Below, piece by piece: positions 11,574 through 13,364 of a stretch of 64,000 nucleotides of DNA. A program made the position numbers and the translations under genes. The stretch is from Gammaproteobacteria bacterium. GTDB taxonomy: Bacteria; Pseudomonadota; Gammaproteobacteria; JAUIAT01. The stretch covers positions 426 to 64,425 of the forward strand of contig JAUIAT010000011.1 of NCBI GenBank assembly GCA_030425295.1, in the 5' to 3' direction. The notes below the pieces were generated by a model that saw nothing but the letters and a program-made list of their open reading frames with translations, ran no database searches and had not been told where the DNA came from. How positions within the stretch are numbered: the stretch's first letter is position 1; each line of letters opens with the position of its first letter.

Positions 11574-12308
11574 CTAATTTTTACTGCATAGCCCAAGATT
11601 TATAGCTTCATATAACATTTGTCCAGCTATTGTTACAGCTTCATTTTCATCTGAATATATATTTAATAGTTCTTCACAGCACTCGGTAAAAGTAGCATTT
11701 TTTATTATTAACTTGATAAATATATTAAATTCTTTTGAGAAATTTAGATAATGAACTTGATTGTTATTACGCCAAAACCAGCATAAGACTGGTTCAGTAA
11801 GCTTTTTGGGTAGCAGGTGTGAACCAGATTCTTCCCGGGATGAATAACTTGTTAATGCGTTAGTTTTAAAGCTATGGCAGCATAAGCTTTTGTTAGGAAA
11901 AAGTTTTAAATTTCCCCATTCATCTTCAGACAAGTTAGTGAGATCCTCAGTGGTAAGAGGATTTGAGTTTTCAGCAATCACAGATCTATTAATGGTTAGT
12001 TCAATATGAGCAAGTTCTGATGCAAACGGTTCATTTATTGACGCAAGATAATCAGGAAAATTTAAGCTTACGTCTCTAATTGTTACATAGTGAGAGGGGT
12101 GTTTGAGGATAAAATCCCTAGAAATTTTTTCAAATTTATCACCAAGAGAGTCATTCGTTGATGGAAATTCAGCAACTAAAAAGTCTGCTAAGCGATTAAG
12201 AAAAGTTTGTTGATATCTTTTAGTGTGCTCGATATTTAGCTTTGGAGGATGAGTTTGGCAGAGTATGGCTTTTTGTAACTCTTCTTGGATATCTAATAAT
12301 GACCTCAT
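11574..12308 (-). CDS. DUF2063 family protein (HvfC/MbnC-like partner of DUF692)
   Basis: 244-aa protein immediately downstream of, and abutting, the DUF692 gene. This pairing is a conserved operon arrangement. The family assignment is from memory of the architecture and no strict motif supports it. Confidence 0.45.
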   Translation of the reverse strand: MRSLLDIQEELQKAILCQTHPPKLNIEHTKRYQQTFLNRLADFLVAEFPSTNDSLGDKFEKISRDFILKHPSHYVTIRDVSLNFPDYLASINEPFASELAHIELTINRSVIAENSNPLTTEDLTNLSEDEWGNLKLFPNKSLCCHSFKTNALTSYSSREESGSHLLPKKLTEPVLCWFWRNNNQVHYLNFSKEFNIFIKLIIKNATFTECCEELLNIYSDENEAVTIAGQMLYEAINLGLCSKN

Positions 12309-13136
12309 CTATACAGCCCCTGCTCTCGTAGCAATTTTTCGAGCTATTTCCAATTCATCAACTAAAATATTTAACTCTGGAATATCATCATCTCTCTCAA
12401 TCATAGTTGAAACAGGACCAAATGTTTTCCAACTTTTTTCAAATAAATTCCAAACTTCATCAATAATTGGAGCATTATGAGTATCAAGTATGTAGTCGCC
12501 TTTATTCTGGTGGCCTGCTATATGAATTTGCATAACTCTTTCTTTTGGCAAAGTTTTTATATATTGCAAAGGATCAAATTTATGATTAAAACCATTAACA
12601 AAAGCGTTATTAACATCGAATAAAATACCACAATTAGAATTTTCTGAAAGTTCAGCTAAGAATTCCCATTCTGGCATCTCAGATTCGTTGAATTCCATGT
12701 AGGTTGAAGCATTTTCAATTAAAATTTGTCGTCCTAAATAATCTTGAATTTGTTTAATTCTGTCAGCAGTATGATTTAGAGCTTCAGTTGTGTAAGGAAT
12801 TGGTAGTAATTCATGAGTGTTATAGCCATCAATTCCTGTCCAGCAAAGATGATCCGAAACAAAAATTGGGTTGACCCGCTCAATAAGTTTTTTTAATCGA
12901 TGTAGATATCCAGTGTTAATTGGGTCAGTGCTACCAATAGACATTGAGACACCATGCATAGCGATTGGATATTTTTCATTTATTTCATCGAGGTAATCAA
13001 GTTCTGGCCCACCGTCAATAAAATAATCTTCCGTAAGTATTTCAAACCAATCCACTTTCGGGGTTGAGTCAATAATTGTTTGATAGTGGCATGGTCTAAG
13101 TCCAAGACCGAATCCGAGAAAAGGTTTATTGTTCAT
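12309..13136 (-). CDS. DUF692 (MbnB/TglH/HvfB-like) TIM-barrel metalloenzyme family protein
   Basis: N-terminus MNNKPFLGFGLGLRPCHYQ...DWFEILTEDY and HGVSMSIGSTDP are typical of the UPF0276/DUF692 family. Confidence 0.7.
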   Translation of the reverse strand: MNNKPFLGFGLGLRPCHYQTIIDSTPKVDWFEILTEDYFIDGGPELDYLDEINEKYPIAMHGVSMSIGSTDPINTGYLHRLKKLIERVNPIFVSDHLCWTGIDGYNTHELLPIPYTTEALNHTADRIKQIQDYLGRQILIENASTYMEFNESEMPEWEFLAELSENSNCGILFDVNNAFVNGFNHKFDPLQYIKTLPKERVMQIHIAGHQNKGDYILDTHNAPIIDEVWNLFEKSWKTFGPVSTMIERDDDIPELNILVDELEIARKIATRAGAV

Positions 13137-13151
13137 ATAAAATTTCGTGGT

Positions 13152-13192
13152 TGAAAAAAGGGGCAGAAATGCTGCCCCTTCAAAGGAAAAAG
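13152..13192 (-). terminator. intrinsic terminator/attenuator between the peptide gene and the DUF692 gene
   Basis: The minus strand reads CCTTTGAAGGGGCAGCATTTCTGCCCCTTTTTTCAACC (GC stem plus T7). It lies between the peptide stop (13194) and the DUF692 start (13136). Confidence 0.65.
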
Positions 13193-13193
13193 C

Positions 13194-13364
13194 TTACTTG
13201 CTTTTGCAAGAGTTTTTGCCTTTGTGGAATTTAGGCTGGTAAGTTTTAGCTTTTTGCTTAACTGTTACAGACTTAGAATTAGCTGGAGTTTGTGCACAAC
13301 CAGCAGCGATTAGAGCAGCAGCGCCTGCAGCGGCAGCTAGAGTCAACTTTTTAGTTTTTTTCAT
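13194..13364 (-). CDS. small secreted Lys-rich peptide (candidate precursor/substrate of the DUF692-DUF2063 pair)
   Basis: 56 aa, MKKTKKLTLAAAAGAAALIAAGCAQTPANSKSVTVKQKAKTYQPKFHKGKNSCKSK. It has a signal peptide with a lipobox-like AAGC, AGGA SD 8 nt upstream of the ATG, and a Cys near the C-terminus. The track ORF begins at an upstream TTG at 13382. Confidence 0.55.
   Translation of the reverse strand: MKKTKKLTLAAAAGAAALIAAGCAQTPANSKSVTVKQKAKTYQPKFHKGKNSCKSK

What the first reader, a model, noticed from the sequence alone, without database searches (positions are those of the whole stretch)
11574..13364. Small secreted Lys-rich peptide + DUF692 + DUF2063 operon with an inter-gene hairpin: a RiPP-like / metal-binding-peptide maturation system
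A 56-aa signal-peptide-bearing peptide gene is followed by a strong hairpin plus T-run, then a DUF692 TIM-barrel enzyme (MbnB/TglH/HvfB family) and a DUF2063 partner (MbnC/HvfC-like), all on the minus strand. The peptide's mature part is AQTPANSKSVTVKQKAKTYQPKFHKGKNSCKSK, with a Cys near the C-terminus. DUF692 enzymes are known to carry out oxidative modifications of Cys residues in precursor peptides (methanobactin, 3-thiaglutamate). The attenuator-like hairpin between precursor and enzyme is typical of RiPP loci, where it controls stoichiometry. The peptide differs from classical 4-Cys DUF2282 partners, so the product may be novel.
Basis: partly seen in the sequence, partly recalled or inferred. 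Interest (0 to 1): 0.7.

Follow-up and report, generated by a model that had tools for sequence, protein, structure and literature searches.

The report
Minimal bufferin-type peptide maturation operon
A three-gene operon in an uncultured Legionella-like bacterium encodes the enzyme pair of the already well-described bufferin (copper-binding modified peptide) family, plus an unusually tiny, probably lipid-anchored precursor peptide with a single modifiable cysteine, so it is an ordinary system with a stripped-down substrate.

Summary
On the minus strand lie a 56-aa ORF (13364-13194), a 9-bp G+C-rich hairpin with a T6 run (13180-13154), a 275-aa DUF692/MNIO enzyme (13136-12309) and a 244-aa DUF2063 partner (12308-11574).

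The enzyme passes NCBI's curated "MNIO family bufferin maturase" (BufB) model and keeps every invariant residue. It also carries the Asp-Asp signature reported for enzymes that act on Cys-Lys sites.

The peptide has no detectable homologue, but its only core cysteine sits in KGKNSCKSK. The hexapeptide GKNSCK occurs in 15 of 82 ORFs upstream of BufB relatives.

This is a buf2-type ("Cys-Lys captophorin") bufABC operon with a minimal, single-site, lipoprotein-type precursor. That kind was described in 2024-2026, including lipidated members and precursors with as few as one Cys.

A structured bufA-bufB spacer proved to be class-wide: mean z was -3.1 in 63 loci against about 0 in coding controls.

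Whether one thiooxazole can bind copper, or whether the precursor is a decayed remnant, is unresolved. Novelty: new member of a known kind. Interest is about 0.3.

The parts
13404..13432 (-). Candidate sigma-70 promoter (TTGATG-17 nt-TATCAT). A 9-nt palindrome (ATGATAACT-N5-AGTTATGAT, 13404-13426) fills the spacer and the -10 hexamer and could be an operator.
   Evidence: Consensus scan, 9/12 matches; inverted repeat I8. Both are pattern matches only, with no functional evidence.
13372..13377 (-). Shine-Dalgarno sequence AAGGAA, 7 nt upstream of the precursor ATG.
   Evidence: Read directly from the sequence.
13194..13364 (-). bufA-like precursor gene, 56 aa: MKKTKKLTLAAAAGAAALIAAGCAQTPANSKSVTVKQKAKTYQPKFHKGKNSCKSK. 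Residues 1-22 are the signal peptide. The lipobox is IAAGC, with Cys23 at 13298-13296. The single core Cys53 (13208-13206) lies in KGKNSCKSK.
   Evidence: ORF and sequence. Lipobox pattern match. Cys-context PWM score of 16.2 bits, above 87% of true precursor sites and above all other Cys contexts in the window. Only hit in the window to an in-house precursor profile, E 0.001. Weak hit to NCBIfam BufA2, 16.3 bits against a cutoff of 60. GKNSCK occurs in 15 of 82 ORFs upstream of BufB relatives.
13154..13180 (-). Intrinsic-terminator-like hairpin between precursor and enzyme genes: a 9-bp stem (7 G-C pairs), a 5-nt loop and a T6 run. It starts 13 nt after the precursor stop codon and ends 17 nt before the bufB ATG.
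   Evidence: z = -4.0. The same spacer is structured in 63 related loci, with mean z -3.1 against +0.08 and -0.26 for coding controls (Wilcoxon p about 1e-11).
12309..13136 (-). bufB: MNIO (DUF692) bufferin maturase, 275 aa. Expected metal-ligand and catalytic positions are intact (H61, H96, E141, D174, N177, H205, H209, D218, H220, E247, D249). Asp250 follows the catalytic Asp.
   Evidence: PF05114 at 1.4e-106. NF050167 MNIO_BufB at 368.3 bits against a cutoff of 310. Invariant columns in a 20-sequence alignment. PDB 3BWW at E 1.2e-45, where ERD-D aligns against ERD-F.
11574..12308 (-). bufC: DUF2063 partner protein (PME1 type), 244 aa. Its start codon abuts the bufB stop codon, suggesting translational coupling.
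   Evidence: PF09836 over residues 7-88, 47.9 bits against 27.2. NF050145 HvfC family over residues 19-227, 39 bits, below the equivalog cutoff of 142. BLASTP matches to the gene after bufB in 54 loci. A profile of 23 homologues hits the C-terminal domain of PDB 3DEE at E 0.0012.

Best explanation
This is a buf2-type bufferin ('Cys-Lys captophorin') operon, bufA-bufB-bufC, with a minimal precursor.

Shown by the tools:
- The enzyme is a BufB-class multinuclear non-haem iron oxidase with an intact active site.
- The next gene is its DUF2063 partner.
- The upstream 56-aa ORF has a signal peptide with a lipobox and one cysteine in the class-consensus K-G-K-N-S-C-K context.
- A terminator-like hairpin separates the precursor gene from the enzyme genes, as in most related loci.

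Inferred mechanism:
1. The cytoplasmic BufB-BufC heterodimer oxidises Cys53 of the precursor to a 5-thiooxazole, a four-electron oxidation that lowers the mass by 4 Da.
2. The peptide is exported by Sec.
3. Lgt, LspA and Lnt lipidate Cys23 and remove the 22-residue signal peptide.
4. Because Ala, not Asp, occupies position +2, Lol carries the product to the outer membrane.
5. The product is a 34-residue, strongly cationic lipopeptide (9 Lys, no acidic residue) that carries one thiooxazole three residues from its C-terminus.
6. By analogy with bufferins it would bind copper in the cell envelope. With only one heterocycle it would need His47 or a second peptide molecule to complete the coordination sphere.

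The hairpin most likely ends most transcripts after bufA, or stabilises that short transcript. This would make the precursor far more abundant than the enzymes. bufB-bufC coupling would favour a 1:1 enzyme complex.

The confidence of 0.6 is for the whole statement. Taken separately: about 0.9 that this is a bufferin-type cluster, about 0.65 that the 56-aa peptide is the substrate, and about 0.4 that the product is a working copper binder.
For: Enzyme class:
- NF050167 BufB equivalog at 368 bits, above the 310 cutoff. HvfB, MbnB, ApyH and ChrH models all fall below their cutoffs.
- All invariant residues are retained.
- ERDD in this enzyme aligns against ERDF in the Lys-Cys-type structure 3BWW. 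This matches the Phe-to-Asp specificity switch that PMC13097082 reports for Cys-Lys MNIOs. The peptide's Cys53 is followed by Lys.

Partner.

Precursor:
- Gene order bufABC is strictly conserved in bufferin clusters (PMC12452194).
- PWM score of 16.2 bits, with none of 2,319 other Cys contexts in the window reaching it.
- Sole hit in the window to the precursor profile.
- GKNSCK occurs in 15 of 82 upstream ORFs and NSCK in 31 of 82.
- The nearest BufB relatives include short linear precursors: L090 (...HNSCKAKSSCKAKASS) and a Coxiellaceae peptide whose mature lipopeptide is also 34 aa.

Lipobox: roughly a third of the related precursors have one. The literature gives 16% of Buf2, and lipidation has been shown experimentally for other MNIO products (PMC12452194; PMC13056109).

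No doxX is needed. The founder buf2 cluster lacks it, and DoxX is dispensable for Buf1 modification (PMC11626156).

Hairpin conservation.
Against: - There is only one core cysteine. Characterised bufferins use two or four thiooxazoles, and Buf1 binds Cu through 2N2S or 4N (PMC11626156). One heterocycle cannot do this alone.
- In the one in-vitro test available, on a different subfamily, FonBC modified a two-repeat peptide but not a one-repeat peptide (PMC13097082).
- The peptide fails the curated BufA2 model (16 bits against 60). It aligns only to the N-terminal 60% of precursor profiles, as a truncated gene would.
- It has no homologue among 5.8 billion or 1.84 billion proteins. The genome has no close relative (UvrB at most 76%, BufB at most 62%).
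- The signal peptide and lipobox were judged by pattern only.
- There are no expression, mass-spectrometry or metal-binding data.
Confidence: 0.6

Rival explanations
1. The small ORF is a decayed remnant of a canonical 6-Cys BufA2 gene, truncated after the second or third cysteine with the other cysteines lost. BufB and BufC are either on their way to loss or serve a stand-alone precursor encoded outside this window.
For: The peptide aligns only to positions 1-53 of 86 of the precursor profile and to 3-47 of 79 of NCBIfam BufA2. It lacks the CysI-CysVI disulphide pair and three of the four modification sites of Buf2 (PMC11626156). Stand-alone precursor genes and orphan MNIOs are common (PMC12452194), and loci L013, L033 and L056 have no upstream precursor. 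The host is a low-GC (37.8%), probably host-associated lineage in which gene decay is plausible.
Against: bufB keeps all invariant columns, and bufC is a full-length intact ORF coupled to bufB. The small ORF keeps its SD, signal peptide, lipobox, a consensus-quality modification site and an intact terminator. Only 57 nt separate it from bufB, so there is no leftover coding debris. Other near relatives have equally short linear precursors, so shortness is a natural state in this group. No other BufA-like ORF exists in the 64 kb.
Confidence: 0.2
2. The 56-aa ORF is an ordinary small lipoprotein that merely sits next to the enzyme genes and is not their substrate. Small non-RiPP lipoproteins such as LptM occur in or beside bufferin clusters.
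For: PMC13056109 lists non-RiPP lipoproteins (LptM, BON-domain, glycine-zipper and TssQ proteins) in or adjacent to bufferin clusters. The peptide has no family assignment.
Against: There is no Pfam or NCBIfam hit to LptM or any other lipoprotein family above noise. The single core Cys lies in a context that scores above 87% of genuine precursor sites and is unmatched elsewhere in the window. The ORF occupies the strictly conserved bufA position, with the class-typical hairpin after it.
Confidence: 0.07
3. The system is a functional RiPP pathway, but the chemistry or role differs from copper-chelating thiooxazole bufferins. The modification or the metal could be different, or the cationic lipopeptide could have a membrane or host-directed role.
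For: MNIOs catalyse many different reactions, and product assignments within this cluster have already been revised once (oxazolone-thioamide to 5-thiooxazole; PMC13097082). The single-site, highly cationic (+9), lipid-anchored product does not resemble a folded bufferin domain. No copper-related gene is adjacent; the nearest metal gene is a cation-diffusion-facilitator exporter 3 kb away.
Against: The enzyme passes the BufB equivalog model, and its specificity residue matches the Cys-Lys thiooxazole-forming group. PMC13097082 argues that MNIO-PME1 pairs broadly install 5-thiooxazoles.
Confidence: 0.1

Closest known systems
Bufferin 2 cluster bufA2B2C2 of Caulobacter vibrioides (BUF_6/12Cys family; 'Cys-Lys' captophorin group)
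   Same: Three-gene order of precursor, MNIO and DUF2063 partner, without doxX. The precursor has a Sec-type signal peptide. The modified Cys is followed by Lys in an x-N-x-C-K context. The enzyme passes the BufB model and has Asp after the catalytic Asp (PMC11626156; PMC13097082).
   Different: BufA2 has a folded 6-Cys domain with four modified Cys and one disulphide. This peptide has one core Cys, no disulphide partner and a 34-aa mature length, and it fails the BufA2 HMM (16 bits against 60). It has a lipoprotein rather than a plain Sec signal. No SigF/NrsF regulators are seen nearby.
Linear Cys-Lys repeat precursors next to the nearest BufB relatives (metagenomic loci L090, L023, L040; Coxiellaceae CP058706 locus L083)
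   Same: Short, unstructured, Lys-rich cores ending a few residues after the last Cys. They share NSCK(A/S/G)K units. L023 and L083 have a lipobox, and L083 has an identical mature length of 34 aa.
   Different: These carry 2-4 or more core Cys. The window peptide has one, the fewest core Cys among the upstream ORFs I accepted as precursors. No sequence homology is detectable beyond the signal peptide and the motif. These relatives are themselves uncharacterised.
DAG-RiPPs (lipoprotein-pathway RiPPs: lipo-DybA, NedA; PMC13056109)
   Same: An MNIO-modified precursor whose signal peptide ends in a lipobox. The prediction is diacylglyceryl and N-acyl modification of the new N-terminal Cys and membrane anchoring.
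   Different: The experimentally shown examples belong to the ChrH-like and EGKCG (oxazolin) subfamilies. Lipidation of this peptide is only predicted from the pattern.
Bufferin 1 / gig operon (DUF2282 BufA1, BufB1C1D1) and oxazolin/fontiphorin (HvfABC, FonABC; EGKCG repeats)
   Same: The same enzyme-partner pair and thiooxazole chemistry, periplasmic copper buffering, and signal-peptide precursors.
   Different: The peptide gives no DUF2282 hit at E up to 1 and has no EGKCG motif. Lys-Cys enzymes have Phe where this enzyme has Asp250. doxX is absent here.
Methanobactin MbnABC
   Same: A DUF692-family enzyme with a partner protein modifies Cys of a small precursor into a copper-binding heterocycle.
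   Different: The MbnB model scores 80 bits against a cutoff of 325. Methanobactin precursors have leader peptides rather than Sec signals, and the product is an oxazolone-thioamide secreted as a chalkophore.
Precursor-gene terminators of other RiPP operons (for example mccA-mccB of microcin C, nisA-nisB of nisin; from my own knowledge, not checked here)
   Same: A stem-loop directly after the precursor gene gives an abundant short precursor transcript and limited read-through into the enzyme genes.
   Different: Not demonstrated for any bufferin operon. The bufferin papers read here do not mention a terminator or intergenic hairpin.

Membership tests
Bufferin / captophorin biosynthetic cluster (MNIO + PME1 + precursor) | MNIO enzyme of the BufB class | tested here: met
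   NF050167 at 368.3 bits against a cutoff of 310; PF05114 at E 1.4e-106.
Bufferin / captophorin biosynthetic cluster (MNIO + PME1 + precursor) | Conserved metal-binding residues and catalytic Asp in the enzyme | tested here: met
   H61, H96, E141, D174, N177, H205, H209, D218, H220, E247 and D249 all fall in invariant columns of a 20-sequence alignment. Their assignment as ligands rests on published MNIO structures, not on a structure solved here.
Bufferin / captophorin biosynthetic cluster (MNIO + PME1 + precursor) | DUF2063 partner (PME1) encoded directly after the enzyme, with a C-terminal RRE-like domain | tested here: met
   N-terminal DUF2063 domain at 47.9 bits against 27.2. Full-length similarity to the HvfC model (residues 19-227) and to partners in 54 loci. 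The family profile hits the C-terminal domain of PDB 3DEE at E 0.0012. The C-terminal evidence is weak, and the AF2 single-sequence model was unusable (pLDDT 44).
Bufferin / captophorin biosynthetic cluster (MNIO + PME1 + precursor) | Gene order precursor-enzyme-partner on one strand | tested here: met
   13364 to 11574 on the minus strand, with gaps of 57 nt and 0 nt.
Bufferin / captophorin biosynthetic cluster (MNIO + PME1 + precursor) | Cys-rich precursor (multiple modifiable Cys) | tested here: not met
   There is one core Cys (Cys53) plus the lipobox Cys23. The related upstream ORFs have a median of 4 Cys-Lys dyads.
Bufferin / captophorin biosynthetic cluster (MNIO + PME1 + precursor) | Cys converted to 5-thiooxazole; product binds copper | not testable with these tools
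   Needs mass spectrometry, NMR and metal-binding assays.
BufA2 / BUF_6/12Cys precursor family (NF050166) | Score at or above the curated cutoff | tested here: not met
   16.3 bits against a cutoff of 60, E 0.0083.
BufA2 / BUF_6/12Cys precursor family (NF050166) | Six (or twelve) conserved Cys in a folded domain | tested here: not met
   One core Cys. The alignment stops at profile position 53 of 86.
BufA2 / BUF_6/12Cys precursor family (NF050166) | Modified Cys in a Cys-Lys context (x-N-x-C-K-G) | tested here: met
   KGKNSCKSK scores 16.2 bits on a PWM of 527 sites. GKNSCK occurs in 15 of 82 upstream ORFs.
Cys-Lys subgroup of captophorin MNIOs (PMC13097082) | Asp instead of Phe directly after the catalytic Asp | tested here: met
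   E247-R248-D249-D250. D250 is at least 90% conserved among relatives. 3BWW, from the Lys-Cys group, has ERDF at the aligned positions.
BufA1 / DUF2282 (PF10048) | HMM match and four conserved Cys | tested here: not met
   No PF10048 hit at E up to 1.
DAG-RiPP (lipoprotein-pathway RiPP) | Signal peptide ending in a lipobox, with an invariant Cys at +1 | tested here: met
   MKKTKK, then a hydrophobic stretch, then I-A-A-G-C23. This fits a PROSITE-style lipobox pattern. No dedicated predictor such as SignalP or LipoP was available.
DAG-RiPP (lipoprotein-pathway RiPP) | Diacylglyceryl and N-acyl groups on the N-terminal Cys of the mature product | not testable with these tools
   Needs mass spectrometry of the membrane fraction or globomycin sensitivity.
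Rho-independent terminator | G+C-rich stem-loop followed by a U-tract | tested here: met
   9-bp perfect stem (7 G-C pairs), 5-nt loop and T6. The tool's own scan missed it because the A-U extension of the stem consumes part of the T run. Termination efficiency was not tested.

The most novel reading that the evidence does not exclude
The locus may represent a natural 'one-site' class of lipid-anchored thiooxazole peptides in Legionellales-like bacteria. These would be 34-residue cationic lipopeptides, seen here and in a Coxiellaceae genome, that carry one or two heterocycles. They would act at the outer membrane, either by binding copper as dimers or with a His ligand, or in a role other than metal buffering, such as envelope or host-membrane interaction. 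This would also show that a BufBC pair can process a single isolated Cys-Lys site, unlike FonBC in vitro.
Probability: 0.2. Interest if true: 0.5.

Novelty: new member of a known kind. Interest (0 to 1): 0.3.

Why it matters
Bufferins and captophorins are now recognised as one of the most widespread RiPP classes, with tens of thousands of clusters, and as a general bacterial defence against copper, including copper in phagocytes. One more cluster adds little.

Two things are of modest value.
- This is the smallest substrate seen in the roughly 90 loci compared: one site, 34 mature residues and a lipid anchor. It would make a convenient natural minimal substrate for asking what BufBC needs for recognition, and whether one thiooxazole can bind metal.
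- The comparison showed that a strong stem-loop between the precursor and enzyme genes is a conserved feature of these operons (63 loci). The bufferin papers read here do not mention this. It predicts transcriptional control of the precursor-to-enzyme ratio.

Tried and rejected
- Homologue searches with the peptide found only the peptide itself, plus two low-complexity matches to the Ala-rich signal region. This held for the word-indexed 5.8-billion-protein search and the exhaustive HMMER scan of 1.84 billion representatives. Conservation could not be tested.
The window's genome is not among the GTDB representatives scanned.
- The motif search in the supplements of PMC12452194 found nothing. 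The held tables carry accessions, not sequences.
- No window ORF matches any recurrent neighbour of BufB in 80 loci, so no doxX (bufD) is present. This is not a problem, because the founder buf2 cluster lacks it.
- The six-frame profile search found no second BufA-like gene in the window.
- The LptM or other small-lipoprotein identity was rejected, with no family hit.
- A neighbour-joining tree of BufB placed the window with L085, L083, L090 and L091, but no grouping exceeded 38% bootstrap support. I make no phylogenetic claim.
- The AlphaFold2 model of BufC without an alignment had pLDDT 44, so it was not used for fold search. A profile search of the PDB was used instead.
- A MerR/CueR-type promoter was considered and rejected, because the spacer is 17 nt rather than 19-20 nt (reading).
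- The Logan contig from a second data set is 100% identical over 3,855 bp, so there are no polymorphisms to test for selection.
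Full report
**What is in the sequence**

Between 13364 and 11574 the minus strand carries three tightly packed ORFs.

The first is a 56-aa ORF, from ATG 13364 to stop 13196-13194. It is preceded by AAGGAA seven bases upstream and encodes MKKTKKLTLAAAAGAAALIAAGCAQTPANSKSVTVKQKAKTYQPKFHKGKNSCKSK.

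Thirteen bases after its stop codon comes a perfect 9-bp stem, AAGGGGCAG/CTGCCCCTT (13180-13172 and 13166-13158). It has a 5-nt loop and six T's at 13159-13154. The spacer folds at -18.2 kcal/mol with z = -3.0, and z = -4.0 in my own test.

Seventeen bases further on, a 275-aa ORF starts at 13136. Its TAG is directly followed by the ATG of a 244-aa ORF (12308-11574).

The flanking genes are unrelated and differently oriented:
- a divergent ClC channel (13547-15298, plus strand);
- a convergent O-antigen-ligase/TPR protein (9539-11491, plus strand).

**The proteins**

The 275-aa protein matches Pfam MbnB_TglH_ChrH (DUF692) at E 1.4e-106. It also passes NCBI's curated equivalog model "MNIO family bufferin maturase" BufB, with 368 bits against a cutoff of 310. 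It falls below the cutoffs of the HvfB, ApyH, MbnB and ChrH models.

In an alignment with 19 relatives of 56-60% identity it keeps all 85 invariant columns. These include H61, H96, E141, D174, N177, H205, H209, D218, H220, E247 and D249, the positions expected for iron ligands and the catalytic base. Its best solved relative is 3BWW at E 1.2e-45.

The 244-aa protein has an N-terminal DUF2063 domain (47.9 bits against a cutoff of 27.2). It aligns over nearly its full length to the HvfC-family model, but below the equivalog cutoff. It also resembles the gene that follows the BufB homologue in 54 of 80 related loci. A profile of 23 such partners reaches the C-terminal domain of 3DEE, the solved DUF2063/RRE partner cited by Gadgil et al., at E 0.0012.

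The enzyme pair is therefore a standard BufB-BufC (MNIO-PME1) pair.

**The peptide**

It matches no family above threshold. The best match is NCBIfam BufA2 at 16 bits against a cutoff of 60. It has no homologue in either of the two large protein searches.

Three lines of evidence nevertheless tie it to the enzymes.

1. I collected the ORFs upstream of BufB relatives in 80 genomes and about 10 metagenomic loci. Roughly half are canonical BufA2 six- or twelve-Cys domains. Most of the rest are linear, Lys-rich repeats of x-N-x-C-K-x.
   - A position weight matrix of 527 Cys contexts from 65 of these precursors gives the peptide's KGKNSCKSK 16.2 bits.
   - That is better than 87% of genuine sites.
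   - None of the other 2,319 Cys contexts in the six-frame translation of the window comes near it.
   - The exact hexapeptide GKNSCK occurs in 15 of the 82 ORFs.
2. A profile of 24 six-Cys precursors finds this ORF and nothing else in the window (E 0.001).
3. Gadgil et al. (PMC13097082) report that MNIOs acting on Cys-Lys sites have Asp, rather than Phe, after the catalytic Asp.
   - The window enzyme reads E247-R248-D249-D250.
   - The Lys-Cys-type 3BWW reads ERDF at the aligned positions.
   - Cys53 of the peptide is followed by Lys.

The signal peptide ends in I-A-A-G-C23, a lipobox. Cleavage is therefore expected before Cys23. The mature product is predicted to be a 34-residue, N-terminally lipidated peptide with 9 Lys and no acidic residue. 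Ala at position +2 implies Lol transport to the outer membrane; this last point is an inference from general lipoprotein-sorting rules.

About a third of the related precursors I collected also have a lipobox. The literature gives 16% for Buf2 (PMC12452194). Lipidation of MNIO products through the lipoprotein pathway has been shown experimentally for other subfamilies, the "DAG-RiPPs" (PMC13056109).

A Coxiellaceae genome (CP058706) has a BufB that is 61% identical to this one. It carries two tandem lipobox peptides upstream, one of which also has a 34-residue mature length.

**The hairpin**

For 63 related loci with a clear precursor and a 35-200-nt spacer, I folded the bufA-bufB spacer and compared it with shuffles.
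- Mean z was -3.1, and about 70% of loci were below -2.
- Same-length controls from inside bufB gave +0.08 and -0.26 (Wilcoxon p about 1e-11).
- By a crude criterion, 11 of the 63 spacers look like terminators (a stem of at least 6 bp, G+C-rich, with a T-rich tail). The window's hairpin clearly has a T run.

A structured element after the precursor gene is therefore a class feature. No transcript data exist. The bufferin papers I read do not mention such an element.

**Organism**

The window is 37.8% G+C. It has the gammaproteobacterial lptD-surA-pdxA-rsmA order. Its UvrB is at most 76% identical to anything known, with 71-74% identity to Gammaproteobacteria, Coxiellaceae and Legionellaceae MAGs. 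BufB is at most 62% identical to anything known.

The host is a deep-branching, uncultured, Legionellales-like lineage with no sequenced close relative. A second data set (Logan ERR3428545) gives an identical 3.9-kb contig.

**Best explanation and its limits**

The locus is a buf2-type bufferin operon. The founder buf2 cluster of Caulobacter vibrioides is likewise bufA-bufB-bufC without doxX, and DoxX is dispensable for Buf1 modification (PMC11626156).

By analogy, BufBC would oxidise Cys53 to a 5-thiooxazole in the cytoplasm. Sec and the lipoprotein machinery would then export and anchor the peptide, and the product would bind copper in the envelope.

The weak point is the single site.
- Buf1 uses two thiooxazoles and Buf2 uses four.
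- Buf1 coordinates Cu through 2N2S or 4N.
- FonBC, from the Lys-Cys subfamily, did not process a one-repeat peptide in vitro.

A single heterocycle would need His47 or dimerisation to bind metal, which is speculation. The main rival explanation is that the ORF is a truncated remnant of a six-Cys BufA2, since it aligns only to the N-terminal 60% of the profiles.

Several points argue against decay:
- the intact enzyme pair;
- the intact SD, signal peptide, lipobox and terminator;
- the absence of leftover coding sequence in the 57-nt spacer;
- the existence of equally short linear precursors next to the nearest BufB relatives (L090, L091, L083).

The BufB phylogeny is unresolved, with bootstrap support at or below 38%. 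I do not claim these loci form a clade with the window.

**Comparison with what is known, and verdict**

Every component belongs to a kind described between 2024 and 2026:
- bufferins (PMC11626156);
- the MNIO precursor landscape, which explicitly mentions hundreds of unclassified signal-peptide ORFs with 1-18 Cys before MNIO genes of this cluster (PMC12452194);
- lipoprotein-type RiPPs (PMC13056109).

The peptide fails the membership tests for BufA2 (HMM score, six Cys) and for DUF2282. I therefore file the locus as a bufferin/captophorin cluster of the Cys-Lys type with an unclassified minimal precursor, not as a BufA2 member.

It is a new member of a known kind. It is a useful candidate minimal substrate and a reasonable pointer to a conserved post-precursor hairpin, but it would not surprise a specialist. 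Interest is 0.3.

Noticed in passing
window 2000-2077 (-), with ORF 857-2008 (-): Rfam SAM_alpha (SAM-II) riboswitch hit at 39.5 bits against a gathering score of 36, in what otherwise looks like a gammaproteobacterial genome. The downstream 383-aa ORF has no Pfam or NCBIfam family. Both the taxonomic placement and the regulated gene are unusual for this riboswitch class.
   Followed up: partly
63 related loci among L002-L081, the spacer between the precursor gene and bufB: Strong secondary structure in the bufA-bufB spacer is conserved across the class: mean z -3.1 against about 0 for coding controls, p about 1e-11. Many are 10-16-bp perfect hairpins, and most lack a T run. The bufferin papers read do not mention this.
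   Followed up: yes
L082 2382-2558 and 2757-2927; L083 2758-2928 (Coxiellaceae CP058706): Two tandem lipobox mini-precursors (58 and 56 aa; FAAGC lipobox; 2-4 core Cys) lie upstream of a BufB that is 61% identical to the window's. In the NCBI assembly the partner gene is split (201 + 74 aa), but it is intact (272 aa) in a Logan contig.
   Followed up: partly
L090 2208-2435; L091 2231-2461: The low-GC metagenomic relatives carry linear repeat precursors without a folded domain...NSCKAKSSCKAKAS... (twice) and ...NGCQSKNGCSSNGCQSKNGC... This precursor style is not covered by the 6/12-Cys model.
   Followed up: partly
L085, L086, L087: Different captophorin classes sit back to back in single loci: BufA2-type plus two BufA1 (DUF2282) genes in L085, an EGKCG-type cluster followed by a Cys-Lys cluster in L086, and a BufA2 cluster followed by a BufA1 cluster in L087.
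   Followed up: no
L013, L033, L056: BufB homologues with no recognisable precursor ORF upstream, so they are orphan maturases or their precursors are encoded elsewhere.
   Followed up: no
window 13484-13533: A 19-nt inverted repeat (84% complementary, 12-nt spacer) lies immediately upstream of the divergent ClC channel gene (start 13547). No Rfam family matches it.
   Followed up: no
window 13404-13426: The palindrome ATGATAACT-N5-AGTTATGAT overlaps the -10 hexamer and spacer of the candidate precursor promoter, so it could be an operator for an unknown regulator.
   Followed up: no
window 17102-17710 (+) and 17796-18752 (+): Two tandem paralogous ORFs (202 and 318 aa) have very similar N-termini (MK.xPxQV.T..QL.K.LKG.Y.TAY...) and no family assignment. 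They may be lineage-specific proteins of this Legionellales-like organism.
   Followed up: partly
window 7512-8375 (-): A cation-diffusion-facilitator metal exporter (PF01545, E 1.9e-42) lies 3 kb downstream of the operon, separated from it by a SohB-type peptidase and the O-antigen-ligase-like gene. It is probably coincidental, but it is the only metal-related gene nearby.
   Followed up: no
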